A stretch of 64,000 nucleotides of DNA from a virus. Taxonomy: Duplodnaviria; Heunggongvirae; Uroviricota; Caudoviricetes. The position numbers were made by a program, and so were the translations under genes. The first letter of the stretch is position 1, and every line of letters begins with the position of its first letter. The stretch lies in the IMG/VR virus record IMGVR_UViG_3300037423_000296, positions 11,541 through 75,540 of that record; one strand, written 5' to 3'. Shown in pieces: positions 24,323 through 38,122 of the stretch. A model generated the notes under the pieces. That model saw only the letters and a program-made list of their open reading frames with translations, had not been told where the DNA came from and ran no database searches.

Positions 24323-24565
24323 TCACCAGAACTTTGCAATGAAGTGGATTGCCACGTAGATAATCCCGGCTGTCAGAGCAAGGCTAAGCAGTGCCCCGAT
24401 AAGCCAGACAATCACAAAGCCAATGCCAACCTTGCGTTCAATGTCACGCAATGTAACTCCTCCCTTAATCCTCGTCATCTGGAGTGCCGAATTCAAACAC
24501 AATGAAATCCGGCAGAAATATTGAGAGTACAACCACTGCAATTCCGACCATGACCAAAGCTGCAC
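24323..24565 (-). CDS. small membrane protein
   Basis: ORF track; hydrophobic. Confidence 0.4.
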   Translation of the reverse strand: MQLWSWSELQWLYSQYFCRISLCLNSALQMTRIKGGVTLRDIERKVGIGFVIVWLIGALLSLALTAGIIYVAIHFIAKFW

Positions 24566-24656
24566 CGACGAAAAGCCCGAGCACCATCAGAGCCATTCCA
24601 ACAGAGTACCCGATTTCATCCAGCGAAATGAAGTGATGCCCAATGTTGATTTTCAT
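24465..24656 (-). CDS. small membrane protein
   Basis: ORF track; overlaps neighbour. Confidence 0.3.
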   Translation of the reverse strand: MKINIGHHFISLDEIGYSVGMALMVLGLFVGAALVMVGIAVVVLSIFLPDFIVFEFGTPDDED

Positions 24657-25400
24657 TTACCGGCCCTTCTGCTTGAGCGTACTATCCAAGGAAACCTTAC
24701 CGGAGAATGCAGCCCTCATCAAGCCGGGGAACTGATTCAAGGTAATGATTGACGCAACGGTGTTGTGTCGGAACATCTTGGAAAGCTCGTCGGCAACCCG
24801 CTCATCTGCGACAGACTCAACCCCGACATGGACAGCAGGCTCACGGAGAGCGTCAGCCAAATTTATGTCCAGAGCGAATCCCTTGGTGACCGTGAATCGA
24901 ATTGCCCTGAGAGCCCTCAGCGGGTCTTCTGACAGCCTTTCTAGTGGGTCACCTACAGCCCTAACAATCCGGCGCTTGATGTCCCTAAAGCCGTCGTGAG
25001 GGTCAATGAAGTTACCAGTGCTATCCTTGGCAATGGCATTCATGGTGAAATCCCGCCGCTTTAGGTCGTCGCCAAGCTTACCCGGCTCAACCTTGTCAGG
25101 CCTGCGTCCGTCCGTGTAATCCGACTCCTTGCGAGCCAGCACAAAGTCGGCAGCCATGCCAGGGTAAGTCGGGTGATTCTTCGGGAATTGTCCACGAGCC
25201 GTCAAGAATTCGGGGGTCGTCACGAAAATGGTGAATCCCTGCTTCTTCAGCATGTCCACCATCGTTTGAAACGGATTGAATTCCAGCCCGCCAATTGGGT
25301 TCCAATCGTACTGAGCGAGAACGCAAGTGAAATCAATGTCCTTCGATGGAATACCCAGGATTTCATCCCGAACACAACCGCCTACTTCAAAGAGTTGCAT
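24657..25400 (-). CDS. cca: tRNA nucleotidyltransferase (CCA-adding enzyme / polyA polymerase head domain)
   Basis: GGCVRDEILG..DIDF and RRDFTMNAIA motifs. Confidence 0.85.
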   Translation of the reverse strand: MQLFEVGGCVRDEILGIPSKDIDFTCVLAQYDWNPIGGLEFNPFQTMVDMLKKQGFTIFVTTPEFLTARGQFPKNHPTYPGMAADFVLARKESDYTDGRRPDKVEPGKLGDDLKRRDFTMNAIAKDSTGNFIDPHDGFRDIKRRIVRAVGDPLERLSEDPLRALRAIRFTVTKGFALDINLADALREPAVHVGVESVADERVADELSKMFRHNTVASIITLNQFPGLMRAAFSGKVSLDSTLKQKGR

Positions 25401-25403
25401 AAT

Positions 25404-25589
25404 TCAGTCCAATCCCCTAGGGTCAAACTTGGTGTAATTCAGACCGTTAGCCTCAACGAAATCAACAAGTGTATCCCAGCACTCTTGCTCAGCCCGGATA
25501 TTAGCTTCAGAGTCATCATCAATCAGACGATTACTCGCCTTGACCCACAAATCTCGTAGCCTCAAAGCTTCCTTCTCAATCTCGGTCAT
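25404..25589 (-). CDS. hypothetical protein
   Basis: ORF track. Confidence 0.45.
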   Translation of the reverse strand: MTEIEKEALRLRDLWVKASNRLIDDDSEANIRAEQECWDTLVDFVEANGLNYTKFDPRGLD

Positions 25590-25596
25590 GAGACCT

Positions 25597-25626
25597 ACTC
25601 TACCTTGAGAGTCTTGAGGTTGTCAA
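25597..25626 (-). promoter_or_regulatory. promoter TTGACA-N18-TAGAGT
   Basis: consensus match. Confidence 0.5.
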
Positions 25627-25886
25627 GAGCCTTCATCGGGCCGCGTCTCCTCGCGGTTGAAACGGCGGGCTGCCCGCTCAGCGCATTTCCGGGCGGTGCC
25701 GGGGCTGTTGTGAGCATGCGGGCAACGCTCGAATTCCAAACCTTTCTCGCCCCTTCGGACGACGACCCCTCGCCAGACATTCACACGCTGATGGACAAGG
25801 CCGCCGCTGTCCCGCCGCAACATGGTGCGTTTGTCAACGAACTGGATTGGGTCTGACGCATACCAATCGCTAGGCATCGCTCTCAC
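25623..25886 (-). CDS. hypothetical protein
   Basis: ORF track. Confidence 0.45.
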   Translation of the reverse strand: MRAMPSDWYASDPIQFVDKRTMLRRDSGGLVHQRVNVWRGVVVRRGEKGLEFERCPHAHNSPGTARKCAERAARRFNREETRPDEGS

Positions 25887-26073
25887 ATTCCTGACAGCCG
25901 TACTTAGGTTGTTCCTCGTGGTCTGGGCAGATTTCTACGACGGACAAATCGTCGGCATTCGCCGGGTCTTCCGAGATGTATTCACCAAGACGTTCCTGTG
26001 CAGAAAAGTCACTGTAGAAACCTGTCTCTACAAACCCGCCGTCGCTCGCAGTCCAAATGCCGTATTCCTGCAT
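25870..26073 (-). CDS. hypothetical protein
   Basis: ORF track. Confidence 0.45.
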   Translation of the reverse strand: MQEYGIWTASDGGFVETGFYSDFSAQERLGEYISEDPANADDLSVVEICPDHEEQPKYGCQECESDA

Positions 26074-26237
26074 TATTCGCCGTCCTCACCATCAACGTGA
26101 CCTACGACTCGCCAACCCTCGGTCAGCAATTCCTTAACCTCGTCGGTGTCAGGGTCTTCGAACAATGGGCAATGCGACACGTAGGCATAGCGGGTAGGCT
26201 CGTTCTTCTCTCGCCGTAGCATCAATCTGGTTGCCAT
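26073..26237 (-). CDS. small hypothetical protein (54 aa)
   Basis: manual ORF MATRLMLRRE..; AGGAGA RBS. Confidence 0.4.
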   Translation of the reverse strand: MATRLMLRREKNEPTRYAYVSHCPLFEDPDTDEVKELLTEGWRVVGHVDGEDGE

Positions 26238-26268
26238 TGGTATCTCCTTAGCTTGAGTTGATACTCAG

Positions 26269-26297
26269 AGTCTAGTCTGAGAATGTCGGCCTGTCAA
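26269..26297 (-). promoter_or_regulatory. promoter TTGACA-N17-TAGACT
   Basis: consensus match. Confidence 0.55.
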
Positions 26298-26587
26298 GCA
26301 TCGCCGTCCATCAGCTTCCGGAAGAAACGCTTGATACCCTCGCGTCGAGCAATCCGGCGAGAATGCCTGAGTTCCTGTTCGGTCAATGGGTAATCGGCAT
26401 GCCGACTCCGGTAATTCCGGTCGTCTTGGCAGAATTGGCATGGACAAATACTCTGAAAATGCTTCATTAGATTGACCCCGGCTTTCTGCGGGAGGTACTT
26501 AGCGACTTGGCGAGAGGAAACCTGATAGCCGTACCGGGGTCTTCCGATGTTTACTGTTACCAGCTTACCAGAAAACCCCGATTTCCG

Positions 26588-26779
26588 CTACTCCATTTCG
26601 TCGTCTCGGTTGTCCTTACCCAGAAGTTCTCGGAGGACGGCATTACGTCCTCGTTCCCACGCCAGAGCTTCACGATTCGACGGAGTGAACACATCGTCAG
26701 GCTGTGCCTCAAGCTCATCCAGCCGCGCCTCAGATGCTTCGAACAATTCCAATGCTCTGAGCTTGAATTCGTCAGCCAT
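26588..26779 (-). CDS. hypothetical protein (start at MADEFKL)
   Basis: ORF track trimmed; ATGA-type overlap with upstream small ORF. Confidence 0.4.
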   Translation of the reverse strand: MADEFKLRALELFEASEARLDELEAQPDDVFTPSNREALAWERGRNAVLRELLGKDNRDDEME

Positions 26780-27035
26780 TAGCGTCCTCCTGCTCATTCA
26801 TCATTTTGGCAGTCTTCTCAGCCTCTTGCTTGGTCATCAAATCAGTGGCGTATCCGAGATGAGTGTCTTGTACGTAGAAGCGTACGGGCGTGTCATTCTC
26901 CCACGGACCAAGCTCCTTCACCACGTATCTCATCCCTCGTGCTCCTCGTCCTTGACCATGGTAATCATGTAGACGATGTGGTCATCCACTTCCTCTTCGG
27001 TGCCTTCGAATTCACAGTATGGACATTTAGGCATT

Positions 27036-27383
27036 TTACCGACCTTCCTCGCAGAGGTACTGGGTCGCTCCGTCGTAAATCCGGCGACCGGCTCCAGGGT
27101 ACTGAAGCTCAGCCATGTTTGTCAACGTAGTCTCGGAGAAGCTGTGTAGCTCCCCGCAAATCTTGTAGCCGACAAACAGCAGGTTGCCGTTCGGCTCACT
27201 GTTTAGCTCAGGATTGTTCATCCTGACATAGTTGAGGTAGGCGTCGTTGAGCTTGGCGGATTCATCCGATGTGCGACCGTGAGCGGTCATCTCAGGCTCG
27301 CTCGCCTCGTGGATGGCCAGCCCTAGGCCGACGCCTGCAAGAGCCAGCACAACGGCTCCTACGGCCAGCCACCAGCGCTTCAT
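27036..27383 (-). CDS. secreted/membrane-anchored protein (signal peptide)
   Basis: MKRWWLAVGAVVLALAGVGLGLA. Confidence 0.5.
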   Translation of the reverse strand: MKRWWLAVGAVVLALAGVGLGLAIHEASEPEMTAHGRTSDESAKLNDAYLNYVRMNNPELNSEPNGNLLFVGYKICGELHSFSETTLTNMAELQYPGAGRRIYDGATQYLCEEGR

Positions 27384-27694
27384 GACGCGCTCAACTCCCA
27401 GCCAGGGAAGTAAGCAATCAGACCGTCGCCCAGCGGGTCAATCTGAAGGTGAGCGCCGAGCAGACCAGCGTCGTCAGGATTGACGTAATCGGAGCGAGTG
27501 TGGTTCCAGTCCATCTCCCGATACATGGAATCACCGCCCAGCTTCACAAGAAAGCTACCGAGTTCTCCGAAGGTGTCGAATTGAATTCCGAAACCCGGCT
27601 CCAAGTGGGGCTTGATGTGGCTTTTGTAGGACAGGTAGAAATCTCCCGCGTGAACCGCAGCGTTCCGAATGTCCTTGCCAGTGATGGTCAGCAT
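27380..27694 (-). CDS. paralog family A member 1 (C-terminal YFPGWEL)
   Basis: shared FGI(Q/E)FD and (V/A)YFPGW(T/E)L motifs with two neighbours. Confidence 0.5.
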   Translation of the reverse strand: MLTITGKDIRNAAVHAGDFYLSYKSHIKPHLEPGFGIQFDTFGELGSFLVKLGGDSMYREMDWNHTRSDYVNPDDAGLLGAHLQIDPLGDGLIAYFPGWELSAS

Positions 27695-27739
27695 GTTATC
27701 TCCTTCTACTAATTGTTACGGTGTGTTACTGCTACTGAA

Positions 27740-27768
27740 AGTCTAACCTAGGGTCAGACTAATGTCCA
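27740..27768 (-). promoter_or_regulatory. promoter TGGACA-N17-TAGACT
   Basis: consensus match. Confidence 0.5.
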
Positions 27769-28080
27769 GCCAGGGAAGTATACAACCGTGTGAGAAGTAA
27801 GGGCACTCATCCTTCCGGCACGGGCAAGCTCAAAAGCCCTCTCGCTGGTCAGAGACTCGTCGTCATTGTCATCAGCGTATTGGTCCATAACCCCGCCCTC
27901 AATGCCAAGAGACGTGAAGAATGCAAATACGTGCGACATGGCGTCGAACTCGATTCCGAAGCCCTCTGGCAAATCCCACCCGCCACGGTAAGCCGGGACA
28001 ATTGCGTCCTCGCCTTCGAATACATTCGCGGCTTCCAGCGCGGCCAGAACTTCCTTGCGACTGATGACCTTCTCCATCAT
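27754..28080 (-). CDS. paralog family A member 2 (C-terminal VYFPGWTLV)
   Basis: see member 1. Confidence 0.5.
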   Translation of the reverse strand: MMEKVISRKEVLAALEAANVFEGEDAIVPAYRGGWDLPEGFGIEFDAMSHVFAFFTSLGIEGGVMDQYADDNDDESLTSERAFELARAGRMSALTSHTVVYFPGWTLV

Positions 28081-28109
28081 GACTCCTTAGCTTGAGATTG
28101 TGGCTTCAC

Positions 28110-28361
28110 CTACACCATAATCAGGACAACTGTCCAGTACTTCTCCGTGCCACCCCATGCACCTCTCGGCACTGATTCGGCAATTGCGTTCATGCCCTGT
28201 TTCTGCAAACGTCGAGCTTCCCGGCGAGCTTCAATTTGTGACATCGGTCGGCCCAATGGACACTCTGGCAAATGAGCCTGCGTAACCCTCGCAAAACAAA
28301 CCGGGCATTCTGGGAAATAAACATTTGCCTCATCGTTCGGAATCATCGTCGCTCTCCGCAT
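28110..28361 (-). CDS. hypothetical Cys-rich protein
   Basis: ORF track; CPVC..CPLG. Confidence 0.4.
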   Translation of the reverse strand: MRRATMIPNDEANVYFPECPVCFARVTQAHLPECPLGRPMSQIEARREARRLQKQGMNAIAESVPRGAWGGTEKYWTVVLIMV

Positions 28362-28683
28362 CCAATAGCCTGATGTAAGCGCATCCGACAGAATGAGTCA
28401 TCGTCTTGGCACCCTTACCCACCTTCGGAGTGAGTTTGAATTTCGCGCCACAGGCTGGACAATCCTCGCCTCGTGCAATTGCTTCAAACCACTCGTCCAA
28501 TGGATTGGAGACATTGCCAGTAATGTCCAGCGGGTCACCATCGGCCTTGAGAGCCCAGCGGCGAAGCTGATGGGGAATGCCGGTCATCCCTTCGACAACC
28601 GGCTTTCCAGCCTCATCGTAGCCCAGCAATTTGACTCTCGGCGTATCGAGCACTTGTCGCTGTTGCTTAGTGAGCTTGTTCAT
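28330..28683 (-). CDS. hypothetical protein with CPACG / C..C motifs
   Basis: ORF track. Confidence 0.5.
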   Translation of the reverse strand: MNKLTKQQRQVLDTPRVKLLGYDEAGKPVVEGMTGIPHQLRRWALKADGDPLDITGNVSNPLDEWFEAIARGEDCPACGAKFKLTPKVGKGAKTMTHSVGCAYIRLLDAESDDDSER

Positions 28684-28994
28684 CAGTAGAGAGTCCAGCC
28701 CTTGAAGTACACCGTCAACTTTTCGGGGGTGTATTCCAGAGAAGCATCGTCAGCGAGCCCCTGAGCCTTCTCATCCTCGTAGTTGTACGTCTCACCGGTA
28801 CCGAGAACATATCCAGCCTCTCGACCCATCTGAGTAAAGAACCGAGCCACCTGAGCGAAGTTCTCAAAGTCAATGCAGAGGCAATCTCTCACGCCATCCT
28901 TGTTGACAATCTCGTAGGGGTTCAGGTTCGAAGAGCCCCCGGCCTTGTTCAAAGCGTAAACCACGCTGTCTCGGTCAATCTTGTTCAACGGCAT
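28683..28994 (-). CDS. paralog family A member 3 (C-terminal VYFKGWTLY)
   Basis: trimmed from ORF 28683..29111 to MPLNKIDRD; GGGAGG RBS. Confidence 0.5.
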   Translation of the reverse strand: MPLNKIDRDSVVYALNKAGGSSNLNPYEIVNKDGVRDCLCIDFENFAQVARFFTQMGREAGYVLGTGETYNYEDEKAQGLADDASLEYTPEKLTVYFKGWTLY

Positions 28995-29029
28995 GATGTC
29001 CTCCCCTAGCTCGTGATTGTTACAGGTAA

Positions 29030-29070
29030 AGCCTAACAAGAAAAGAGCCGGGGCACAATGGCCCCGGCTC
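29030..29070 (-). terminator. intrinsic terminator (gagccggggc/gccccggctc stem followed by U-run on minus strand)
   Basis: read in sequence downstream of 29077..30075. Confidence 0.65.
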
Positions 29071-29076
29071 AATTTC

Positions 29077-30075
29077 TTAGACAGCCGCCAGGAAGCGCTG
29101 CCAGACTGCATTCCGGCTGTCGTTGGTCACGTTGTCGAAACCAGCGCCAGCGGCAAACAGGTTCTCGTCCTTACCGGCGCGAACCTCACGGAACCACTGC
29201 TGGTGCTCAGTGACAGCGTTGAGACCCTTCCAGACCGTGTTGTCAAGGTTGCCCATGGACTCCGTACCGTTGCTCCAAATGGTCTCCAGAGCGTCAACCT
29301 TGAATTCCCACTTGCTCATCCGGCCACGGGTGTTGTCCTCAGGCTTCGGGTAAATGTCCTCAACAATCTTGAGGAAAGCGTCCTTGGTCATCTCGGCCTC
29401 AATCATGGCCTTGGCCTCAGCCTCAAAGGCGTCGTCGTAAGCCTGAGCGAATCCAAGGGCGGCCTGAGCGTCGGCCAGCTTGGTCTCCATACCCTGAGTG
29501 TGACGAATGCGGAATTCGTCTCCACGCTCGCCCAGAGCCACGTTGAGGGTGTTCTGACAAACAACCCTCACGTTCGTCTTCTTGGCAATCAGGGTGCCGG
29601 AACCATCGTGCGAGGAGGTCAGCATCAGATAGCGCTTGATGACATCCTTGGAACCCTTCGGGTCCAGCACGATATCGTTGGTCTCAACCAGCGTGGCAAA
29701 TACCTGAGCACCACCCTTGATAGAACCGGCAGTCTCCCAGCGGCGACGGCCATTCGTGAGCTTGTCTCCGAAGTCGAAAATCGACTCGTTGGAGAAGATG
29801 TTGTAACGCTTGCCAACCGTGCCCAGAACATCCTTCTGGCCCTTCTTGAAGGGGTTGTCACGGATGACGAGCTTGGCTTCCTTGGCAAAGTTGTAGTGCG
29901 GAAGCTCTTCCTTCAGGTCAAGGAAGCGAATGTTCCAACCGTGAAGGTGAGCGAGCTTGAGCATTTCCTCAGTGGAAACCGGCTTGTCGAAGACGGTACC
30001 GAGTCGGTGCCAGGCGGGCTCACGCAGGGAAGCGAAAGCAGCCAGGTCGCCGTAGGTCTCGATTCCTGCGGGCAT
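29077..30075 (-). CDS. hypothetical protein, 332 aa, likely highly expressed (own promoter, AGGAGGA RBS, terminator); function unknown
   Basis: ORF track; regulatory context. Confidence 0.65.
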   Translation of the reverse strand: MPAGIETYGDLAAFASLREPAWHRLGTVFDKPVSTEEMLKLAHLHGWNIRFLDLKEELPHYNFAKEAKLVIRDNPFKKGQKDVLGTVGKRYNIFSNESIFDFGDKLTNGRRRWETAGSIKGGAQVFATLVETNDIVLDPKGSKDVIKRYLMLTSSHDGSGTLIAKKTNVRVVCQNTLNVALGERGDEFRIRHTQGMETKLADAQAALGFAQAYDDAFEAEAKAMIEAEMTKDAFLKIVEDIYPKPEDNTRGRMSKWEFKVDALETIWSNGTESMGNLDNTVWKGLNAVTEHQQWFREVRAGKDENLFAAGAGFDNVTNDSRNAVWQRFLAAV

Positions 30076-30112
30076 TATGTCCTCCTAGTGTCTGTTTGAC
30101 TTGGTACCTAGT

Positions 30113-30141
30113 ACTCTACCGGAGTCTACCTAGACTGTCAA
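30113..30141 (-). promoter_or_regulatory. promoter TTGACA-N17-TAGAGT
   Basis: perfect -35, consensus -10. Confidence 0.6.
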
Positions 30142-30169
30142 GCACCCAGCCTAGGTAGACTTTGTGGCC

Positions 30170-30409
30170 TCAGTCACTCAGGGTGAGCCGACGATACTCC
30201 ACCTCTGCCTCGCGGACAGCCTGAAAGAATGCCTCAATTTCGCGGGGTTCATCCGTGAATGCGTCCACGAAATCATCAGCAGTCTGGACTTTTGTCAAGA
30301 TGACAGAGACGTAGGGCTTCCGAATTCCACCACTGATATTGTGCTCCTTTACGGTGACATCAATATCAATATTTTCGTGCCCGTAGGCATCCTCGAATTC
30401 AGCAGCCAT
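30170..30409 (-). CDS. paralog pair B member 1
   Basis: shares C-terminal (E/A)FF(Q/R)xV(R/E)EA..Y(R/Y)RL motif with neighbour. Confidence 0.5.
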   Translation of the reverse strand: MAAEFEDAYGHENIDIDVTVKEHNISGGIRKPYVSVILTKVQTADDFVDAFTDEPREIEAFFQAVREAEVEYRRLTLSD

Positions 30410-30627
30410 TACTTGTCAGCCTTGAGACGGTAGTAATCCTTCTTGGCCTCTTCGACTTGCCGGAAGAACTCTTCGATGTCCTCGTGACTGTCCGTCTGAA
30501 ACTCGATGGTCTTCCCGTCGTCACTCTCGAAAATCACCGCCATGAACAGGGTCTCATCTACCTCGCAGGTAATGTCGAATCGAACCTGTTCGCTGCCGTA
30601 ATTGACATTCTCCAGAAATGCGGTCAT
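30409..30627 (-). CDS. paralog pair B member 2
   Basis: see member 1. Confidence 0.5.
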   Translation of the reverse strand: MTAFLENVNYGSEQVRFDITCEVDETLFMAVIFESDDGKTIEFQTDSHEDIEEFFRQVEEAKKDYYRLKADK

Positions 30628-30636
30628 CGCTACCTC

Positions 30637-30984
30637 CTACATCTTGAACTGGTCGAGCGTATCCTTCAGGCGCATTGCATCTCTGGCAACATCGTCTTGA
30701 TAAACCCCGTGCTCCCACTGAGACGCATAGTGCTTGATGATGCCAATAGCAATACCAAGAATCCGCCGACGCATTTCATTGCCGCCTTCTACGGCAAGCA
30801 GGTAGGCAAATGACGAAGTATCGAATGACATCTTATCCAGAAGTCCTACAAGGGTGCGTGCAGCCTTGCCTTCTGGAGTCCTGTAGTTGGTTGTACCTCT
30901 GTCGTAATGTGCGGAGCTTGGGATGTCTGGCTGGTTAATACCTCCACCACCATAGCCACCGAATTGAAAAGACCTTCCACTCAT
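30637..30984 (-). CDS. hypothetical protein (Gly-rich N-terminus)
   Basis: ORF track. Confidence 0.5.
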   Translation of the reverse strand: MSGRSFQFGGYGGGGINQPDIPSSAHYDRGTTNYRTPEGKAARTLVGLLDKMSFDTSSFAYLLAVEGGNEMRRRILGIAIGIIKHYASQWEHGVYQDDVARDAMRLKDTLDQFKM

Positions 30985-30997
30985 TCAGTACCCCGAT

Positions 30998-31579
30998 TCA
31001 GTTGTCGTCGCTGACGGAAACTCCACCCTCAGGCCATCCCTTTCGGACTCCCCAAGAGCCGTTCACCTTAGCGTGCCACTTCTTCCCAGTCTTGTCAATG
31101 AAGTGCGTGAAACCCTCGCTGTCAGGAAACTCGCTCACAACCCTGAGAGTCATGCCCTGCGGGTTGCAGACGAAGTTACCGAAGGCGAACACCTTCTCGT
31201 ACCACGAAAGCGGCGGGTGAGTCGGCTTACCATCCTCGCCAAGCTTGACAGCGTTGGACGGCTTACCCTCAACGATGACAGCCTCACGACTATTGTTCGG
31301 GGTTGAAGCCTTGCGAATCCGCTTCGGGCCACTTTCAGCCCGCTCCTGCGCCGCAAGAACGTGCGCCGGAAGCTTAAAGACGACACCCTCAGACTCAGCC
31401 TTGGCAATAGCCTCCTTGGCAGCAGGACTCATTCGGCCCCGGCCCATCTTGGCAAGTCCGAGACTCGCGGCATACTCACGCGCAGTCATCTCCGAACGCT
31501 TGTCCATAGTTGCAGTAAGCACTTTCTCTCCTTCAGTAGGTTGTGTCTCAACCCTAACAGACTCAAGTTTGGGAGTCAA
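30998..31579 (-). CDS. protein with Lsr2-type C-terminal-domain-like DNA-binding motif (REYAASLGLAKMGRGRMSPAAKEAIAKA) near N-terminus
   Basis: spacing-identical match to REWARKNGYDINARGRIPFSVMDAFTKA of the Lsr2 at 62317. Confidence 0.55.
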   Translation of the reverse strand: MTPKLESVRVETQPTEGEKVLTATMDKRSEMTAREYAASLGLAKMGRGRMSPAAKEAIAKAESEGVVFKLPAHVLAAQERAESGPKRIRKASTPNNSREAVIVEGKPSNAVKLGEDGKPTHPPLSWYEKVFAFGNFVCNPQGMTLRVVSEFPDSEGFTHFIDKTGKKWHAKVNGSWGVRKGWPEGGVSVSDDN

Positions 31580-31732
31580 GAGCTAGCTCAAAAGAATCCC
31601 GGCGATTATCGCGAGTGCAACAATCGTAAGGATACCTAAACAGCTACCACATCCGCCAGTGTTAAGAGGCAGGGTATCTCTGATTTCCCCCGCCTCTATC
31701 CGGTCGTCTCTTGTCAGAGACCGGTAAAGCAG

Positions 31733-31978
31733 TCACCGAATGGCGACGGCAAGCTCCCGAGCGGTAGCCTTCGGCAGGCGACCCTTCGACGGAACCTCCA
31801 GACCCAGGAAGTCGCCCAGTTCGCGAGCGGTCTTCGGCTGAGTCACAAGGTAGTCAGCGATGACATCTACGGAAACCCGCCCAATGCTGCCGACAGCCTT
31901 TCCAGCCTCACGAGCGTGCTCACGAGCCGCGTTCGCGATGTTGGAGGTGTCCAGTACGAGAGTAGTGTACTTAGCCAT
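31733..31978 (-). CDS. hypothetical protein
   Basis: ORF track. Confidence 0.5.
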   Translation of the reverse strand: MAKYTTLVLDTSNIANAAREHAREAGKAVGSIGRVSVDVIADYLVTQPKTARELGDFLGLEVPSKGRLPKATARELAVAIR

Positions 31979-32030
31979 TTCAGTTTCTCCTTCTTGTTCC
32001 GGTTGTGGGCTTGTTGCCCCGTTGAGTAAG

Positions 32031-32060
32031 ACTCTAGGGCCAGACTGTCTAGCTTGTCAA
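32031..32060 (-). promoter_or_regulatory. promoter TTGACA-N18-TAGAGT
   Basis: consensus match. Confidence 0.5.
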
Positions 32061-32074
32061 CCCTACTTCCCGAA

Positions 32075-32380
32075 TTAGTTTTGGGCAGTTGCCGGAAGGT
32101 AGTAGATGTCGTTGCCTACAAGGTAGGCAGCCTGAGCCTCAGTCACAGGCTGACGAGTCTGGACATCCACATACTTACCGATAGAGCAGACGTAACGAAG
32201 CCGGTTCCACCGTGACACCTCCGCGTGAGGACGGATAACCTTCTCCGTCGCCTCTGTCACGACTCCCCGCAACTTCCCATTGATTGCTACGTCCTGTAGA
32301 ACCACAGTCTTTACCTTGACAACCTTACCCTTGATGTTGAGAGCAAGTCCATCACTGGTTTGATTCACTGCACCACGCAT
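32075..32380 (-). CDS. hypothetical protein
   Basis: ORF track; AGGAGGA RBS. Confidence 0.5.
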   Translation of the reverse strand: MRGAVNQTSDGLALNIKGKVVKVKTVVLQDVAINGKLRGVVTEATEKVIRPHAEVSRWNRLRYVCSIGKYVDVQTRQPVTEAQAAYLVGNDIYYLPATAQN

Positions 32381-32424
32381 TTACGTATCCTCCTGGGGGT
32401 TGGAGCTAATTAACTTGTAGCCAG

Positions 32425-32453
32425 ACACTATCGGTAACTCTCGTGCCTGTCAA
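32425..32453 (-). promoter_or_regulatory. promoter TTGACA-N17-TAGTGT
   Basis: consensus match. Confidence 0.55.
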
Positions 32454-32510
32454 CTCTGTGTGTCTGATTAGTCGCTACTTATCTCGGTGTAATTTCGTAC
32501 TGAGTCTACT

Positions 32511-32684
32511 CGAAAGTGCGTTCGAGTGCAATCTTTCAAACGATTGATTCAATCGAACGTTTGTTCGAATACCTCGCGGGGCTGTCGAACAGGTGTTCGG
32601 TTGCTCGCGGGCACCCGAAACCAATTTTTGCCCTTTACGAAAGGGTCCAAAAGTGTACGGGACTTTTTCGCCCTTTACGAAAGG
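32511..32684. promoter_or_regulatory. regulatory region with CGAAMR-NN-YGTTCG palindromes (32511, 32554, 32586) and two CCCTTTACGAAAGG hairpin motifs 40 bp apart (32631, 32671)
   Basis: direct reading. Confidence 0.6.
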
Positions 32685-32869
32685 TCACCGATTTCGACGG
32701 GACTTAAAATCCGAGATTCGGATTGCTCGTGTGTACGTCGTCGGAATTCCGGCTCCTCGTACTCAATCTCTTCTTCCGGCCAATCAAATTCCACAAGACC
32801 ATACCAGACTTCTGTGCTGGGGTCTACAATTAACTCGACATACATGATGCCTCCCGAGTTAATTATACC

Positions 32870-33283
32870 TCAAAGACCCTCATTATCATATCTGGCATGG
32901 GCACAACGAATCTCTTCGTTCAAGTCCTTGATTTCGTTCTCAGCGTAGGCAAGGTCTTCTTCAAGAGCCCTGATTTTCTCGTATTGAGCGTAGTTGTCAT
33001 CCATGAGAACCCCGCAGTTTTTGCACAAGGTGTCCCAGTTCAGCGCGTCCTCGTTGAGAATTAGAATGCGCGTAGCCATCTCTTCCTGAGAGAACCAACC
33101 AGCCTCATCGTACTGCTGGACAAGCCTCAGTGCCTCCTTAAATGCCGGAAGCTCACGATATCTCTCTTTGAATAGCTCTGCCATATCAGCCCCAGATGAC
33201 GACTTTGGTTTCGACCTGTGGGTCGTCGCCGTACTCGCCGTTCTCGATGTCTTCCCAGGAAGCCGGGTATTCGTCTCCGTCAA
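32870..33283 (-). CDS. hypothetical protein
   Basis: ORF track. Confidence 0.45.
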   Translation of the reverse strand: MTETNTRLPGKTSRTASTATTHRSKPKSSSGADMAELFKERYRELPAFKEALRLVQQYDEAGWFSQEEMATRILILNEDALNWDTLCKNCGVLMDDNYAQYEKIRALEEDLAYAENEIKDLNEEIRCAHARYDNEGL

Positions 33284-33410
33284 CGAACTTCTCCTCCTGA
33301 ATACACCAGATGGTGTCGAAGCCGTTACCCTCTTCGTCCTTCGATTTAATGATGGGCAAGTCCTGGTTGAACTTCAGTAGTTCCTTTACCACATCTCCTA
33401 CGGTGTTCAC
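33186..33410 (-). CDS. hypothetical protein
   Basis: ORF track. Confidence 0.4.
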   Translation of the reverse strand: MNTVGDVVKELLKFNQDLPIIKSKDEEGNGFDTIWCIQEEKFVDGDEYPASWEDIENGEYGDDPQVETKVVIWG

Positions 33411-33592
33411 TCAACACTCCTTAGCTTGTCAGCGTGCTTGATAATCCATCTGGCAAGAGAACTTTCGGCATCTACCAATGCGGCGTATTCAACGTCCTGC
33501 AATTGCCACGCCTCAAACTTCTTCCTCGCCTTGTCATAGGCCTTGCGTGCCTCGGTTGCTCGTGTTATAAGCAGAGCCAGCTTCTCGTTCAT
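33407..33592 (-). CDS. hypothetical protein
   Basis: ORF track; CCTTTCGTAAAGGG motif immediately upstream of ATG. Confidence 0.45.
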   Translation of the reverse strand: MNEKLALLITRATEARKAYDKARKKFEAWQLQDVEYAALVDAESSLARWIIKHADKLRSVE

Positions 33593-33628
33593 TTTACCCC
33601 TTTACGAAAGGTCTCCAGAAGTCATGGA

Positions 33629-33656
33629 GAAACCCGGCCTTTTTCGACCGGGTTTC
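33629..33656. repeat. hairpin gaaacccgg-N10-ccgggtttc (possible terminator)
   Basis: read in sequence. Confidence 0.45.
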
Positions 33657-33727
33657 AACCAGAATACAACCAGATGACCAGAAATGCGACCGAAAATCCA
33701 GCCAAAAGCCCCAGTGTGACTAGAATT

Positions 33728-33943
33728 CTACCCAATAACTAGCAAATCCCTCGGTGCAAACCAGAGAGTGGAAATGCTACGACCAATCTCGTCTCTCGAC
33801 TCTTCAGAGAGGACTACCTTGACGGTTCGCTCGGGGTTGATTGGCCCTCTGTCACGCATCTCGCGGACGTGGCCGAAAAGTGTCTTGGTACCCCACTGAG
33901 ATGTCCATTCTGGTGTGGTTCTGACTCTATCTCCGATGTTCAT
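33728..33943 (-). CDS. hypothetical protein
   Basis: ORF track. Confidence 0.45.
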   Translation of the reverse strand: MNIGDRVRTTPEWTSQWGTKTLFGHVREMRDRGPINPERTVKVVLSEESRDEIGRSISTLWFAPRDLLVIG

Positions 33944-34176
33944 TCTACCTCCACCCGAGTGATTGCTCCACCGTCGTCAATGTAGAAGAAGCCCCCTTCC
34001 TTAGACCCGCCGACTGCCCGGTTACCATGCAAGTCGGGGTAGGCAAGGATGTCTTGAACAGTACAGCCGTTCTCTTTGTCCTGCTCTCGACGGGCATCCT
34101 CGAAGTTCCAAAAGGCTCGTGGTCCTGAGTTCCGACCTTCATAAATCCAAACTATAGCCAAATTGTTATGCCTCAA
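33940..34176 (-). CDS. hypothetical protein
   Basis: ORF track. Confidence 0.45.
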   Translation of the reverse strand: MRHNNLAIVWIYEGRNSGPRAFWNFEDARREQDKENGCTVQDILAYPDLHGNRAVGGSKEGGFFYIDDGGAITRVEVE

Positions 34177-34571
34177 ATCTTGTCGTTATAGAAATCATCA
34201 AGTAGTGAGTCAATGTCCATTACCTCTTCGCCCTCAGGCACCAGAACGCGGGTCTGGTCAAGGAAGAGGCTCACCTCATTGAGCGGGTACAGAACGTTCT
34301 GGTAGCCGCCGTCGAATCGTAGGTGCATGCCTACCATTAGCTGTGTGACCGAAAAACTGATTGAACCTTCACCGGCATATCCCATTGCTCGTTCACGGTT
34401 CACTACCGGCTGTACAGCTTCGCTCAGTAGCTCCCGGCCAAAGATAATGTCCGCGCCGGTCACGTTCTGTAGCCTAATCTCGAATGGTCGAGTCTCGTCG
34501 TAAATGAAATTGGTAACCATTTTCTGGTCACCGCCGACGCCTACATGACCTGTAATTGGGCGTGCAAACAT
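34173..34571 (-). CDS. SsgB/SsgA-like protein (SALP family) homolog
   Basis: recalled alignment to S. coelicolor SsgB: YDETRPFEI.. vs YDTADPYAV.., IIFGRELLSEAV vs WVFARDLLAEGL, SLFLDQTRVLVPEGEE vs SFLKRTDAAVPPGTE; ATG start chosen (track used GTG upstream). Confidence 0.6.
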   Translation of the reverse strand: MFARPITGHVGVGGDQKMVTNFIYDETRPFEIRLQNVTGADIIFGRELLSEAVQPVVNRERAMGYAGEGSISFSVTQLMVGMHLRFDGGYQNVLYPLNEVSLFLDQTRVLVPEGEEVMDIDSLLDDFYNDKI

Positions 34572-34798
34572 GCCCCAGTTCCCCACCTCTCGTGTCCCCT
34601 GCTCCCCCACCTTGCCCTCTGCTGGACACGATGCTGGGAGGAATCCTACCTGTTAAACGGTTTGAGCCGCAAAGCGTTACGTAACGCTTAGGTCTCGGCC
34701 TGTCCACAGCCTGTGGACATCCTATGTCACCTGTAGTGACACTACAAGTCCACGGAGTGACAAGACCGGGTTCCTTTACGAAACCCGGTCTACGACAA

Positions 34799-35686
34799 TT
34801 ACTTACTTGGTGCTACGATGCCAACACCCGAAGAGCCAGAGCAATTCCAGCCAGCGGGAAGAGGACCATTCTTGTTCTGGTCCCAGTTATTCGTGACATC
34901 AAGGCAAAAGCGCTGGTTAGCCTGAGGAGTCAGAATGCCAGACTTCTCACGAATCTCAGCAGTCTTGGCCTCAGTCAAAGCCTTTTGACGCTCAAGCTCA
35001 GCACGAGCCAAATCCTGTTGAGCAATGACAACCTTCTCAATGCTGGCCTGCGTCTTCTCGTCCAAGCCTACATTGGTAACCCGGACATTATCAACTTCAA
35101 GACCATACTTCGCAAAGTCCAAAGAAAGCTGAGTCTTGACGGCTTCAGAAATCTCATTTCCCTTTGCCTGAGCATCAGTCGGAATGTACTTGCCAGCAGC
35201 ATCACGAACTGCTGCCTCGGCACTGTTCTGCACAAGTTCCTTCTGAACCCGCTTAAAGGACTTGTAACGCTCCCACAGAGCCTTGGCTTCCTTGTCAGAA
35301 ATCTTCCAAGAGACGGTAGCAGCAATCGAACCCTGACCGCCGCCCTTGTAAGTGACATTGACGCGGTTCACGTGCACAACGTTGTCATCATTGTCGTCAC
35401 CACCATCAAGGTAGAGAGTCTGAATCTGAGTGCTGAACTCTTCGACCGAAGAAGTCGGGTTGGTCCAGTGGAATCCGTTGTCCAGCGTCTTCTGGTACTT
35501 CCCGAAGCCGGTCTGAATTCCGACAGACCGGGCTGAAACAGTGGTAGCCGAACAGATACCAAAGACCAGCAACCAGAGCATAATAACCGCTCCAGCCGCA
35601 ATCTTACCACCGGTCGTGACGAACGCAAAGCCAATTGATACGACAAATGCAATCGCCAGGATGATGGTCAGAATGATGAACAGCAA
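34799..35686 (-). CDS. SPFH/band-7 (stomatin/prohibitin/HflK-like) membrane protein
   Basis: N-terminal TM segments then band-7 core and coiled-coil (AQQDLARAELERQKALTEAK). Confidence 0.8.
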   Translation of the reverse strand: MLFIILTIILAIAFVVSIGFAFVTTGGKIAAGAVIMLWLLVFGICSATTVSARSVGIQTGFGKYQKTLDNGFHWTNPTSSVEEFSTQIQTLYLDGGDDNDDNVVHVNRVNVTYKGGGQGSIAATVSWKISDKEAKALWERYKSFKRVQKELVQNSAEAAVRDAAGKYIPTDAQAKGNEISEAVKTQLSLDFAKYGLEVDNVRVTNVGLDEKTQASIEKVVIAQQDLARAELERQKALTEAKTAEIREKSGILTPQANQRFCLDVTNNWDQNKNGPLPAGWNCSGSSGVGIVAPSK

Positions 35687-35965
35687 TTAAAACTCCTTAC
35701 ATTTTGGGCAGGCCACTGTATAGCCGCCGATTGTTTGGGGGTCATGCTTATAACCTACGAAGGCATTCTCAGACAATAGTTCATGCTCATTGTCCCAATC
35801 TCTTCGTAGCAAATCCCGCGCCATCTTGTCGGCACGCTCCTGCTTGAGCTTCCGAGACATCTCTTTAGCTTTATCTTTGGTCTTCTTCATTTGAAGACCC
35901 CAGTATACTGCAAATCCGGTCCCGCCTGTGAGGACGACACCGAGACTCACTAGTCCTTGTCGCAT
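35687..35965 (-). CDS. membrane protein
   Basis: ORF track; N-terminal TM. Confidence 0.45.
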   Translation of the reverse strand: MRQGLVSLGVVLTGGTGFAVYWGLQMKKTKDKAKEMSRKLKQERADKMARDLLRRDWDNEHELLSENAFVGYKHDPQTIGGYTVACPKCKEF

Positions 35966-36159
35966 TATTCCTCACAGTAGTCGGGGTTATCGAGCGGCGT
36001 AGGCGTTCTCGCTTTATTGCCGCATGACACACAATACATATCTAGGGAGTACGATGCAATCTCATACTCATCAAATGTTGCCAGAATCTTCCAAGTGTCA
36101 CATCCACAGATACAAATGTGGGTAACCACGCCAAGGTCAAGAGGTCTTTCGTTGGACAC
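35965..36159 (-). CDS. small zinc-ribbon protein
   Basis: CICGCD..CVSCGN. Confidence 0.4.
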   Translation of the reverse strand: MSNERPLDLGVVTHICICGCDTWKILATFDEYEIASYSLDMYCVSCGNKARTPTPLDNPDYCEE

Positions 36160-36308
36160 TTTTCTTCTTCTGGCCTTCCTTCTTATTGTGACACTTACAG
36201 TGACACTTCAAATCCCCGTTTTGTTTGGTGCACACTTCGTGCTGATTTGTCAAGCACCAGCCGAACTTGGATTTCCCCTCAGTTACAGCAGAAACGGGCA
36301 TGATTCTC

Positions 36309-36632
36309 CTATCGGCGGATTTCGGAAGCTAGCTGAAGTGCTGTACGAGCCTTAATTTCTCGACCCTCAACACCATTACGGGCGTCCTCATAGAACCAAA
36401 CCTGTGGCACTGACATGATGCCAAATTGCTCCTTGACACCTTCAACGTGGTCAACATCAGCGTCAAGGAAAGTGTAATCAGGCATGGTCTGAGCCGCTGC
36501 CTTTACGTGTGGCGCAAGTCTCTGACAAGGGACGCACCAATCAACTGCTGAGAAGGTTACCACAACATTCGGTGTAGTATCAAGTACATCCAGCAATTCG
36601 TCTAGACTCTCTACCTTGATAACCTCACTCAA
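36309..36632 (-). CDS. trx: thioredoxin
   Basis: WCVPC active-site motif in thioredoxin-length protein. Confidence 0.85.
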   Translation of the reverse strand: MSEVIKVESLDELLDVLDTTPNVVVTFSAVDWCVPCQRLAPHVKAAAQTMPDYTFLDADVDHVEGVKEQFGIMSVPQVWFYEDARNGVEGREIKARTALQLASEIRR

Positions 36633-37035
36633 AGTGAACCCGCACCTCCTTCAGCACACCGTTCGGGAATAGCCGCTCGAAATCAGCCTTGGCGTCTTCC
36701 AACGAAGTTCCCTCGAAGGTGTACTCTACTGGAGAGTGGCCCACAAGCACAAACTTGTGAGTGTTGCTCTCGGCAGCCTTACCGGCTCCGATGAAGGTCA
36801 AGCTACTGACATTCATGAACGTGTTGAACTTTCCCTTGATATTCGTGTTGTAATAGTTACCGGCAGACCCAGCCTTGATGAATGCGTCCCAAGTCCACGA
36901 AGGAACCTTGGAATATCCATAAAGACCGTTGCCAGAGAACTTCACGAATAGATTCTGCTCGCCTCGGTGATAGTAAGCCACGCTGACAAGCGTGCTGTCC
37001 GGACTGAAGCTATCCGTGTATTTGTAATCTGTCAC
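36625..37035 (-). CDS. KTSC-domain-like protein
   Basis: VKFSGNGLYGYSKVP..AGSAGNYYNTNIKGKF resembles KTSC domain (recalled). Confidence 0.45.
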   Translation of the reverse strand: MTDYKYTDSFSPDSTLVSVAYYHRGEQNLFVKFSGNGLYGYSKVPSWTWDAFIKAGSAGNYYNTNIKGKFNTFMNVSSLTFIGAGKAAESNTHKFVLVGHSPVEYTFEGTSLEDAKADFERLFPNGVLKEVRVHFE

Positions 37036-37325
37036 TCAATTTCTCCCATTCTCAAGAATACCTCTACTTTACCAGATTCAGACTGCTTAAACAAGAGGTG
37101 TCGCATGATTACCTGCGCACTTGTGTTCTTCACATGAGAATTCACGGCTTGGTATTCTACTTCAAACTTTGCCCTGTCTAGTACTGCTTGGATGTCTTCG
37201 GCAGTAGGAACTCTTTGAGACCCGCCGATTTTCCAGGTGAGATTGTGCTTTACGAAAAGCTCCGCAATCTCACCAGCTAGAGCGGTGATGGGTTCGCTTG
37301 ACGGCATCAGATACTCCCTGTGCAA
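37032..37325 (-). CDS. hypothetical protein
   Basis: ORF track. Confidence 0.45.
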   Translation of the reverse strand: MHREYLMPSSEPITALAGEIAELFVKHNLTWKIGGSQRVPTAEDIQAVLDRAKFEVEYQAVNSHVKNTSAQVIMRHLLFKQSESGKVEVFLRMGEIE

Positions 37326-37500
37326 TGTCAGTGCTTCGTAGATTTGGAATGTTGATGACTGGCTTGGAGTCGTCTAGCTTGACACTCTTCACTCCAAAGT
37401 CAGAATCCTCAATGTTGGCAAGCAAATCTCCGAGACGAGAATATACTTCACTCTCGAATTCCGTCTCAATCTCTAGCTCAAGCGTTACTTTCTTACGCAT
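37270..37500 (-). CDS. hypothetical protein
   Basis: ORF track. Confidence 0.4.
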   Translation of the reverse strand: MRKKVTLELEIETEFESEVYSRLGDLLANIEDSDFGVKSVKLDDSKPVINIPNLRSTDIAQGVSDAVKRTHHRSSW

Positions 37501-38122
37501 TTGCGTAAATCTCCTTTAGTGGTGTTGGGCTTCCGTGGACGTTAATCAAGTGGTCGAGACCCATGCGGCCTCTGCGCTGTACCGCCTTGCAATCTTGTGC
37601 TGTCCACAAGCCTTGAACAATACCCCCGGCGAATCGAGCAGGCAGGAATCTTCCGCCCCCCTTTGCCTCGTGCTGGTGATACCTTCTGTGCTCAGCAATA
37701 GCCAAGCATTGTACGGCATACAAGAATGTCTGTGGATGAAGGCTGTCTGTCCATAGCTCACCTTCATCGCCGGGGTTTTCCGGTAGAAGGTGATATGTTG
37801 GCCTATGCCAATCAAGCTTGGCAGGGTCTTCACCAAAGACTACCTTAACGTAATCCACGAAGAATTGCTCTGTGGTGTAAAGGTCGTCGCCGCATTTCTT
37901 TTCAATGTCGTGAAAGAGGTCGTCATGAGTGAACTGGTGATTTACCCAGCCTAGTCTTTCATCACTTACCATTACGACAAAATCCCCGCCTTCCGGGGTT
38001 GTGTCTTTCTGATGTCTTCCCGGCATTGCAAGAACCACGCCATTATATGGAGTCATAGTCATGACGTGGTTCTTACCACCAGTTGCGTAGGGAATCATCT
38101 TATGCAGTGTGTCGAATTTCAA
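37493..38122 (-). CDS. hypothetical protein (209 aa)
   Basis: ORF track. Confidence 0.5.
   Translation of the reverse strand: MKFDTLHKMIPYATGGKNHVMTMTPYNGVVLAMPGRHQKDTTPEGGDFVVMVSDERLGWVNHQFTHDDLFHDIEKKCGDDLYTTEQFFVDYVKVVFGEDPAKLDWHRPTYHLLPENPGDEGELWTDSLHPQTFLYAVQCLAIAEHRRYHQHEAKGGGRFLPARFAGGIVQGLWTAQDCKAVQRRGRMGLDHLINVHGSPTPLKEIYANA

What the first reader, a model, noticed from the sequence alone, without database searches (positions are those of the whole stretch)
30998..31579. Second protein carrying an Lsr2-type DNA-binding motif, in addition to a canonical Lsr2
The canonical Lsr2 at 62317..62673 has REWARKNGYDINARGRIPFSVMDAFTKA. The 193-aa protein at 30998..31579 contains REYAASLGLAKMGRGRMSPAAKEAIAKA, with identical spacing of the RE(W/Y)A and RGR(I/M) elements. 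This one sits near its N-terminus and is fused to an unrelated C-terminal region. Two Lsr2-type binders on one phage could counter-silence or re-target the host Lsr2 xenogeneic silencer.
Basis: partly seen in the sequence, partly recalled or inferred. Interest (0 to 1): 0.7.

Follow-up and report, generated by a model that had tools for sequence, protein, structure and literature searches.

The report
Divergent Lsr2-like DNA-binding module protein
A phage gene carries a distant, uncatalogued cousin of the Lsr2 AT-rich-DNA-binding domain fused to a new tail domain, one of three Lsr2-type genes on this Streptomyces-type phage, which extends a known theme rather than founding a new one.

Summary
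The motif is real. It lies on the minus strand at 30998..31579; the likelier start is GTG 31522, giving 174 aa.

Pfam Lsr2_DNA-bd gives no hit even at E<=10, and my own Lsr2-DBD HMM scores 4 bits.

hhalign gives 84.5% (P 7e-6), rising to 93.7% (E 2e-7) with larger alignments. No shuffle out of 750 comes close.

The [R/K]-G-[R/K] loop is the most conserved feature across 146 relatives. AlphaFold predicts helix–loop(RGR)–helix. Fold searches did not recover Lsr2.

The module heads a family of at least 242 protein clusters. Cultured members are the 'Lsr2-like DNA bridging protein' gp221 of BE-cluster Streptomyces phages, where it sits upstream of a canonical Lsr2 DBD.

Here the canonical DBD and Cys-rich tail are replaced by a family-specific domain of unknown fold. 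There is no Lsr2 dimerisation domain, so heteromerisation with host Lsr2 by that route is unlikely.

The adjacent 81-aa gene (31733..31978) encodes two more Lsr2-DBD-like modules. The window therefore holds three such proteins and four modules.

Counter-silencing is plausible but untested. Verdict: a new variant of a known kind, of moderate interest.

The parts
30998..31522 (-). Target gene, 174 aa from GTG 31522.
   Evidence: ORF list. RBS and start read from the sequence. Homologue N-termini.
31525..31533 (-). Shine-Dalgarno-like GAAGGAGAG upstream of the GTG start.
   Evidence: Sequence read.
31373..31489 (-). N-module, residues 12-50: divergent Lsr2-DBD-like helix–loop–helix (MTAREYAASLGLAKMGRGRMSPAAKEAIAKAESEGVVFK).
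   Evidence: hhalign against Lsr2 DBD: 84.5%/7e-6 and 93.7%/1.9e-7. AF2 predicts H14-20, loop 21-32, H33-44, pLDDT 83-91. PHROG 6269 at 4e-14.
31433..31441 (-). R28-G29-R30, an AT-hook-like loop motif that aligns to Lsr2 R97-G98-R99.
   Evidence: R/K 143/146, G 146/146, R/K 144/146 across relatives. Register.
31226..31372 (-). Helix 53-64 followed by a basic, low-confidence linker containing GPKRIRK (net charge +2.9).
   Evidence: AF2 pLDDT 56-76. Charge. PKRxRK is conserved in A1.
31001..31225 (-). Family-specific C-terminal domain, residues 100-174: one helix plus about 5 strands, unknown function.
   Evidence: AF2 pLDDT 83-94. Only weak SH3/Tudor-like Foldseek hits, E>=0.05. No PDB sequence or PHROG match. 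Invariant W, F, G, T, D and WG..G.P columns.
31733..31978 (-). Adjacent 81-aa gene: two tandem Lsr2-DBD-like modules (A about residues 14-46, IGR loop; B about residues 48-81, KGR loop) and no dimerisation domain.
   Evidence: Pfam Lsr2_DNA-bd 4.9e-5, 23 bits, below the gathering score. hhalign module A 95.7%/1e-8 and module B 91.6%/8e-7 against Lsr2 DBD. 16 conserved homologues. Cultured homologues are annotated Lsr2-like.
32031..32060 (-). Promoter-like TTGACA-N18-TAGAGT upstream of the 81-aa gene.
   Evidence: Consensus scan, 10/12 match. Not evidence of function.
31640..31740 (-). Structured intergenic RNA or DNA (two GC-rich hairpins) between the 81-aa gene and the target.
   Evidence: MFE -40.9 kcal/mol, z -3.8. 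No T-tail terminator. No Rfam hit.
62317..62673 (+). Canonical phage Lsr2: dimerisation domain plus DBD (DBD about 62545..62661).
   Evidence: Pfam PF11774 7e-9 and PF23359 2e-14. PDB 2KNG 7e-8.

Best explanation
The gene (30998..31522, minus strand, 174 aa) encodes a three-part protein.

1. Residues about 12-50 form a small helix–long-loop–helix module. [quoted passage not shown] It keeps the Arg that aligns with Lsr2 R84 (a phosphate contact), the aromatic core residue (Y for W), the loop Gly and the [R/K]-G-[R/K] AT-hook-like triplet.
2. Next come a helix and a basic, flexible linker (PKRIRK).
3. Last is a roughly 75-residue C-terminal domain found only in this small family.

The protein has no Lsr2 dimerisation domain. 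It is the positional counterpart of gp221 ('Lsr2-like DNA bridging protein') of BE2-cluster Streptomyces phages. In gp221 the same N-module is followed by a canonical Lsr2 DBD and a Cys-rich tail; here that part has been swapped for the new domain.

Inferred mechanism: the RGR loop inserts into the minor groove of AT-rich DNA, as in Lsr2, and the basic linker adds non-specific contacts. The C-domain would then bring a partner protein, or self-association, to that DNA.

The phage is about 50.6% GC and its cultured relatives infect Streptomyces. From general knowledge, not tested here, Streptomyces genomes are about 70% GC or more. If so, the phage's own DNA is the obvious AT-rich target. A binder that cannot join Lsr2 filaments would act there as a competitor or modulator of host (and phage) Lsr2 coating.

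Shown: the domain, its conservation, the distant homology, the architecture and the synteny. Inferred: DNA binding, AT preference and any effect on silencing.
For: - Motif and spacing are real and not due to chance.
- Profile-profile homology holds in one consistent register. N-module against 17 canonical DBDs: 84.5%, P 7e-6, score 26.8; 600 column shuffles reach at most 19.8 and the reversed profile scores 11.6.
- With 170 N-modules against 55 DBDs: 93.7%, E 1.9e-7, score 32.8; shuffles reach at most 14.5.
- There is a transitive link. Module B of the neighbouring 81-aa protein matches both the Lsr2 DBD (91.6%) and the N-module (89.5%).
- Conservation across 146 relatives: G29 146/146, position 28 R/K 143/146, position 30 R/K 144/146, R15 R/K 145/146, position 17 Y/W/F 146/146.
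- AF2 places the helices at 14-20 and 33-44, with RGR in the intervening loop, pLDDT 83-91. This matches the published description of the Lsr2 CTD as two helices joined by an RGR loop, with R84 contacting phosphate (PMC8476142).
- PHROG 6269 hits at 4e-14.
- 41 of 172 N-module proteins carry a strong canonical Lsr2 DBD downstream.
- Synteny with BE2 gp221, followed by the DUF932 gene.
- The N-module and linker are basic, pI 9.8.
- No dimerisation domain is present.
Against: - Pfam Lsr2_DNA-bd does not detect the module in the target or in any of 22 relatives, even at E<=10.
- A plain HMM of canonical DBDs gives 4.2-4.4 bits.
- A profile of the N-module does not find PDB Lsr2 chains.
- The Pro that follows RGR-I in canonical Lsr2 is Ser here.
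- No binding or functional data exist for any family member.
- The host is inferred only from relatives.
Confidence: 0.68

Rival explanations
1. The N-module is an independent small helix–loop–helix domain that acquired an AT-hook-like RGR loop convergently. It binds DNA but is not homologous to the Lsr2 DBD.
For: No HMMER-level signal to Lsr2. No structural hit to Lsr2. H-NS/Bv3F show that an RGR/QGR AT-hook-like loop can sit in unrelated folds (PMC8476142).
Against: hhalign significance grows with alignment depth, from 84.5% to 93.7%. The matches extend beyond RGR to R15, the aromatic residue, G22, the hydrophobic residue after RGR and A38, at identical spacing. The 81-aa module B acts as an intermediate. 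The helix boundaries coincide with those of Lsr2.
Confidence: 0.17
2. The N-module is mainly a protein-protein or self-association module that replaces the Lsr2 dimerisation domain. In gp221-type proteins it sits N-terminal to a canonical DBD, in the position of the dimerisation domain. On this view the target is not itself a DNA binder.
For: The N-module lies at the extreme N-terminus, upstream of a canonical DBD, in 41 of 172 proteins. Fold searches are uninformative.
Against: The most conserved positions are the basic-Gly-basic loop and R15. The module has net positive charge. It shows no similarity to PF11774. It aligns to the DBD, not to the dimerisation domain.
Confidence: 0.1
3. The resemblance is a chance motif in an alanine-rich helical segment, and the ORF has no Lsr2-related function.
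For: Pairwise BLASTP gives only E 0.044. The sequence is Ala/Lys-rich and helical.
Against: The strict pattern is absent from 30 shuffles of the window. None of 750 profile shuffles reaches the observed score. The domain is conserved in at least 242 clusters, with RGR nearly invariant.
Confidence: 0.02

Closest known systems
Streptomyces BE2-cluster phage gp221 'Lsr2-like DNA bridging protein' (e.g. Francob XAO35385.1, MeganTheeKilla QQV92558.1; PHROG 6269)
   Same: The N-module is the same: 44-56% identity over residues about 27-90 and PHROG 6269 at 4e-14. Both have the same basic KPKRVR-type linker. The genomic position is the same, two genes upstream of the DUF932 gene.
   Different: gp221 continues with a canonical-type Lsr2 DBD (Pfam 1e-4 at residues 72-108) and a Cys-rich tail. 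The target has neither. It carries instead a roughly 75-aa domain found only in about 7 clusters at 50% identity.
Lsr2 (M. tuberculosis Rv3597c; DBD structure PDB 2KNG) and phage full-length Lsr2, such as the one at 62317..62673
   Same: A helix–loop–helix with an RGR AT-hook-like loop, the R84-equivalent Arg and an aromatic core residue. Profile-profile homology.
   Different: No N-terminal dimerisation or oligomerisation domain. The DBD-like module is N-terminal rather than C-terminal. It falls below every HMM threshold for PF23359. RGR is followed by M/F/L-S instead of I-P.
Lsr2-DBD fusion proteins of actinophages (Ku–Lsr2 DBD fusion in cluster J mycobacteriophages; Sharma et al. 2021, PMC8612146)
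   Same: An Lsr2-type DNA-binding module attached to an unrelated domain, encoded in a phage that also has another lsr2 copy.
   Different: In cluster J the DBD is canonical, C-terminal and fused to a known DNA-end-binding protein. Here it is divergent, N-terminal and fused to an unknown domain.
Non-oligomerising antagonists of xenogeneic silencers (Ler versus H-NS; truncated H-NST; short phage Lsr2 lacking the DBD)
   Same: Conceptually, a horizontally carried relative of a silencer that lacks one of the silencer's two essential domains (PMC8476142; PMC10066036; PMC8612146).
   Different: H-NST and the short phage Lsr2 proteins keep the oligomerisation domain and lose the DBD. The target does the reverse, so competition would be for DNA rather than for subunits. 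Nothing here tests that.

Membership tests
Lsr2 family (full-length xenogeneic silencer) | N-terminal dimerisation/oligomerisation domain (Pfam PF11774) | tested here: not met
   No PF11774 hit at E<=10. Only about 11 residues precede the module. The window's canonical Lsr2 does hit, at 7e-9.
Lsr2 family (full-length xenogeneic silencer) | C-terminal DNA-binding domain scoring above the Pfam PF23359 gathering score (26.9 bits) | tested here: not met
   No hit at E<=10 for the target or for 22 N-modules. My own unfiltered HMM gives 4.2-4.4 bits.
Lsr2 DNA-binding domain (fold/superfamily level) | Significant profile-profile similarity to canonical DBDs in a consistent register | tested here: met
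   hhalign 84.5%/P 7e-6 and 93.7%/E 1.9e-7. None of 750 shuffles reaches the observed score.
Lsr2 DNA-binding domain (fold/superfamily level) | Two alpha-helices joined by a loop that carries the RGR triplet | tested here: met
   AF2 predicts H14-20, loop 21-32 containing R28-G29-R30, and H33-44, pLDDT 83-91. This is a prediction, not an experiment. Definition from PMC8476142.
Lsr2 DNA-binding domain (fold/superfamily level) | Conservation of RGR and of the R84-equivalent phosphate-contact Arg | tested here: met
   [RK]-G-[RK] at 143/146, 146/146 and 144/146. R15 is R in 127 and K in 18 of 146.
Lsr2 DNA-binding domain (fold/superfamily level) | 3D similarity to the solved DBD (2KNG, 6QKP/6QKQ) | tested here: inconclusive
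Lsr2 DNA-binding domain (fold/superfamily level) | Binding to the minor groove of AT-rich DNA | not testable with these tools
   Needs EMSA, PBM or NMR.
PHROG 6269 / BE-phage gp221-type 'Lsr2-like DNA bridging protein' | N-terminal module (profile positions about 3-70) | tested here: met
   4.1e-14, residues 29-97 of the 193-aa form aligned to profile positions 3-70. tblastn gives 44-56% identity to the gp221 N-terminus.
PHROG 6269 / BE-phage gp221-type 'Lsr2-like DNA bridging protein' | Second, canonical-type Lsr2 DBD downstream, plus a Cys-rich C-terminus | tested here: not met
   No downstream DBD hit in the target. The target's C-terminal domain was placed in the class with no CxxC..CxC motif and fewer than 3 Cys. 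gp221 has both features.
SAP / HeH / LEM-type helix-extended-loop-helix domains | Match to the Pfam SAP, HeH or Rho_N models | tested here: not met
   No such family is listed at E<=10 for the target or for 22 N-modules.
Eukaryotic-type AT-hook (HMGA) | RGRP core in an intrinsically disordered context | tested here: not met
   The sequence is GRGRMS with no Pro. It is embedded between two confidently predicted helices.

The most novel reading that the evidence does not exclude
The N-module defines an uncurated, widespread domain family of at least 242 clusters with no Pfam or NCBIfam model. It is a divergent Lsr2-DBD lineage used by large Streptomyces-type phages as a portable AT-rich-DNA anchor. 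On this reading, the target, the adjacent tandem-DBD 81-aa protein and the phage's own Lsr2 form a phage-encoded chromatin toolkit. Its DBD-only members, which lack any oligomerisation domain, displace or remodel host Lsr2 filaments on the low-GC phage genome. That would make them a DNA-competition type of anti-silencer, the mirror image of the oligomerisation-domain-only 'truncated Lsr2' proteins.
Probability: 0.2. Interest if true: 0.65.

Novelty: new variant of a known kind. Interest (0 to 1): 0.38.

Why it matters
Host Lsr2 coats AT-rich foreign DNA. It has also been reported as necessary for productive mycobacteriophage infection (PMC10066036). How phages with much lower GC than their hosts deal with Lsr2 is an open question.

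This locus shows that BE-like phages carry more than copies of lsr2. They carry a graded set of Lsr2-DBD derivatives: canonical, tandem-DBD, and a divergent N-terminal module on a new domain. Standard domain models miss the last of these.

This has a practical use for annotation, since a new HMM would capture at least 240 clusters. It also gives a concrete, testable set of candidate modulators of silencing.

It does not overturn anything. Multiple lsr2 copies and DBD fusions in actinophages are already documented.

Tried and rejected
1. Pfam, NCBIfam and PDB-sequence HMM searches for the N-module found no Lsr2 signal. The homology therefore rests on profile-profile evidence only.
3. Identity of the C-terminal domain was not established. 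A PDB profile search and PHROGs gave nothing. Only weak SH3/Tudor/TraI-TSA-like Foldseek hits appeared, at E 0.05-0.6.
4. A megablast of the locus against cultured phages found no match. The phage is known only from metagenome contigs.
5. SAP/HeH membership is rejected because no Pfam hit was found.
6. A chance motif is rejected by the shuffles.
7. A canonical intrinsic terminator between the two genes was not found. Rfam gave nothing in 30500..32500.
8. Heteromerisation with host Lsr2 through the dimerisation domain is considered unlikely because the domain is absent.

Full report
**Observation.** The ORF at 30998..31579 is on the minus strand. It is 193 aa from a TTG start and contains REYAASLGLAKMGRGRMSPAAKEAIAKA. 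The ORF at 62317..62673 (+) is a bona fide Lsr2. It hits Pfam PF11774 at 7e-9 and PF23359 at 2e-14, and PDB 2KNG at 7e-8.

The strict pattern RE[WYF]A-x9-RGR[IMLV] occurs only at these two places in the six-frame translation, and never in 30 shuffles. Pairwise BLASTP is weak: 10/28 identities, E 0.044.

The real start is probably GTG 31522, behind GAAGGAGAG, giving 174 aa. Homologues begin MPTAT/MTTAT there.

HMMER with the Lsr2 C-terminal model fails.
- Pfam Lsr2_DNA-bd gives no hit at E<=10 for the protein.
- It gives no hit for any of 22 N-modules from relatives.
- A profile of the N-module does not find Lsr2 among PDB sequences.
- An unfiltered HMM I built from 17 canonical DBDs (A3, including 2KNG and ten cultured-phage Lsr2s) gives the target only 4.2-4.4 bits. 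The register is nevertheless the correct one.

More sensitive evidence says otherwise.

**Profile-profile evidence.**
- 600 column shuffles gave mean scores of 8.3-8.6 and a maximum of 19.8. The reversed profile scored 11.6.
- With larger alignments (170 N-modules against 55 DBDs) the match strengthens to 93.7%, E 1.9e-7, score 32.8. Shuffles reached at most 14.5.
- Module B of the neighbouring 81-aa protein matches both the Lsr2 DBD (91.6%, 8e-7) and the N-module (89.5%, 2e-6), which gives a transitive bridge.

**Conservation and predicted structure.** Across 146 relatives the best-conserved positions are the ones that matter in Lsr2:
- R15, aligned to Lsr2 R84: R in 127, K in 18.
- The aromatic residue at position 17: Y 128, W 13, F 5.
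- G22: 139 of 146.
- R28 (R or K in 143), G29 (146 of 146) and R30 (R or K in 144).

Published work describes the Lsr2 CTD as two helices joined by a loop. The RGR in that loop inserts into the minor groove and R84 contacts phosphate (PMC8476142).

AF2 (18-sequence alignment, mean pLDDT 79.9) predicts helix 14-20, loop 21-32 and helix 33-44 at pLDDT 83-91. These are followed by helix 53-64, a low-confidence basic linker, and a confident C-terminal domain of one helix plus about five strands. An N-only model agrees.

Fold searches did not retrieve Lsr2 or anything else significant. I treat this as inconclusive for so small a domain.

**Family and architecture.** A full-library HMM search with the family alignment found 242 clusters at E<=1e-3. 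Only about 7 are full-length. The rest match only the N-module, almost always starting at residues 1-5 of proteins of 56-210 aa.

Of 146 representatives, 42 hit Pfam Lsr2_DNA-bd. My HMM shows those strong hits lie downstream, at residues about 55-125, not in the N-module.

A census of 172 N-module proteins:

| Architecture after the N-module | Count |
|---|---|
| Cys-rich tail only | 91 |
| Canonical DBD (35 of these also Cys-rich) | 41 |
| The target's C-domain | 22 |
| Short, or nothing further | 18 |

Cultured members are gp221-type proteins of BE2-cluster Streptomyces phages, annotated 'Lsr2-like DNA bridging protein'. Their Pfam signal comes from the second module only. PHROG 6269 captures the family, and the target hits it at 4e-14 through the first module.

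The C-domain has no match in Pfam, PHROGs or PDB sequences.

**Context.** The window has 32 tRNAs and a tmRNA and is 50.6% GC. This resembles cluster BE Streptomyces phages (PMC5764925).

The DUF932 gene at 29077..30075 is 63% identical to the gene two positions downstream of gp221 in BE2 phages. The target is therefore gp221's positional counterpart, with a swapped C-terminal half.

The order is conserved on three metagenomic contigs: 81-aa gene, then zero or one variable ORF, then the target, a 113-115-aa gene and DUF932.

**The 81-aa protein (31733..31978, minus strand).** It has 16 conserved homologues. It consists of two tandem Lsr2-DBD-like modules, with IGR and KGR loops. In a divergent orthologue the first loop is a canonical RGR. 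Its cultured homologues are also annotated Lsr2-like.

The window thus holds three Lsr2-type proteins and four modules.

**Mechanism.**

*Shown:* a conserved, basic (pI 9.8) N-terminal module distantly homologous to the Lsr2 DBD, with the DNA-contacting residues preserved. There is no dimerisation domain. A basic linker and a novel C-domain follow.

*Inferred:* minor-groove binding to AT-rich DNA through the RGR loop. The phage is about 50% GC and its relatives infect Streptomyces, which from general knowledge (not tested here) have genomes of about 70% GC or more. If so, the phage genome itself is the likely substrate. A binder unable to enter Lsr2 filaments would compete with or remodel Lsr2 coating, while the C-domain recruits a partner or self-associates.

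Heteromerisation with host Lsr2 via the canonical interface is unlikely.

**What is already known.**
- 76 of 354 lsr2-bearing actinophages carry more than one copy, and Ku–Lsr2-DBD fusions exist (PMC8612146).
- Short phage Lsr2 proteins that lack the DBD have been proposed as dominant negatives, and BE phages carry lsr2 in their terminal repeats (PMC10066036).

**Verdict.** This is a new architectural variant within a known, already annotated class of phage Lsr2-like proteins.

The useful additions are three: the N-module is a distinct lineage missed by curated models; the C-domain is new; and the adjacent tandem-DBD gene was overlooked.

Noticed in passing
window 31733..31978 (-): An 81-aa gene immediately upstream of the target encodes two tandem Lsr2-DBD-like modules (GSIGRVS and SKGRLP loops) with no dimerisation domain. 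It is conserved in 16 metagenomic homologues and in BE-like Streptomyces phages (Muntaha gp237, Circinus gp222, BillNye). A single chain with two DBDs could bridge DNA without oligomerising.
   Followed up: yes
window 31640..31740 (-): The intergenic stretch between the 81-aa gene and the target folds into two GC-rich hairpins (MFE -40.9 kcal/mol, z -3.8). There is no T-tail and no Rfam match. It could be a factor-independent actinobacterial-style terminator, an attenuator or a processing site. Homologous contigs carry an extra 129-163-aa ORF at this spot.
   Followed up: partly
window 18170..62166, mostly 40217..62166 (-): 32 tRNA genes and a tmRNA (54714..55109, tag ATDNIDAEYEALCAEYDLASV), all on the minus strand. 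This is typical of cluster BE-like large Streptomyces siphophages.
   Followed up: partly
window 62317..62673 (+): The canonical phage Lsr2 is acidic overall (pI 5.85, net charge -1.4). It lies on the opposite strand to the flanking tRNA genes. From general knowledge, host Lsr2 proteins are small basic proteins, so this is unusual for a nucleoid-associated protein.
   Followed up: no
P0016, P0017, P0018 (alignment A1 columns about 110-170): Some family members carry a linker insert with an extra AT-hook-like RRGR(K/R)PS and a 'VLTxEHxAAMQAGRxKAK' motif that resembles NUMOD3-type DNA-binding repeats. The resemblance is from memory and untested. It suggests the linker is also a DNA-contacting region.
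   Followed up: no
L018 6778..7176; L019 130..504 (syntenic region upstream of the locus; window about 34300..34750): An SsgA-like gene (Pfam PF04686) is encoded a few kb upstream on related contigs. This family is known from sporulating actinomycetes (general knowledge, not checked here), so it hints at a sporulating actinomycete host and possible manipulation of host development.
   Followed up: no
window 32031..32060 (-): A sigma-70-like TTGACA-N18-TAGAGT sits about 50 nt upstream of the 81-aa gene. It is the only strong promoter-like site on this strand in 30500..32500.
   Followed up: partly
N-module proteins P0022-P0026, and 91 of 172 in the census: The commonest partner of the N-module is an uncharacterised Cys-rich C-terminal domain (CxxC...CxC, probably a zinc ribbon) with no Pfam model.
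   Followed up: partly
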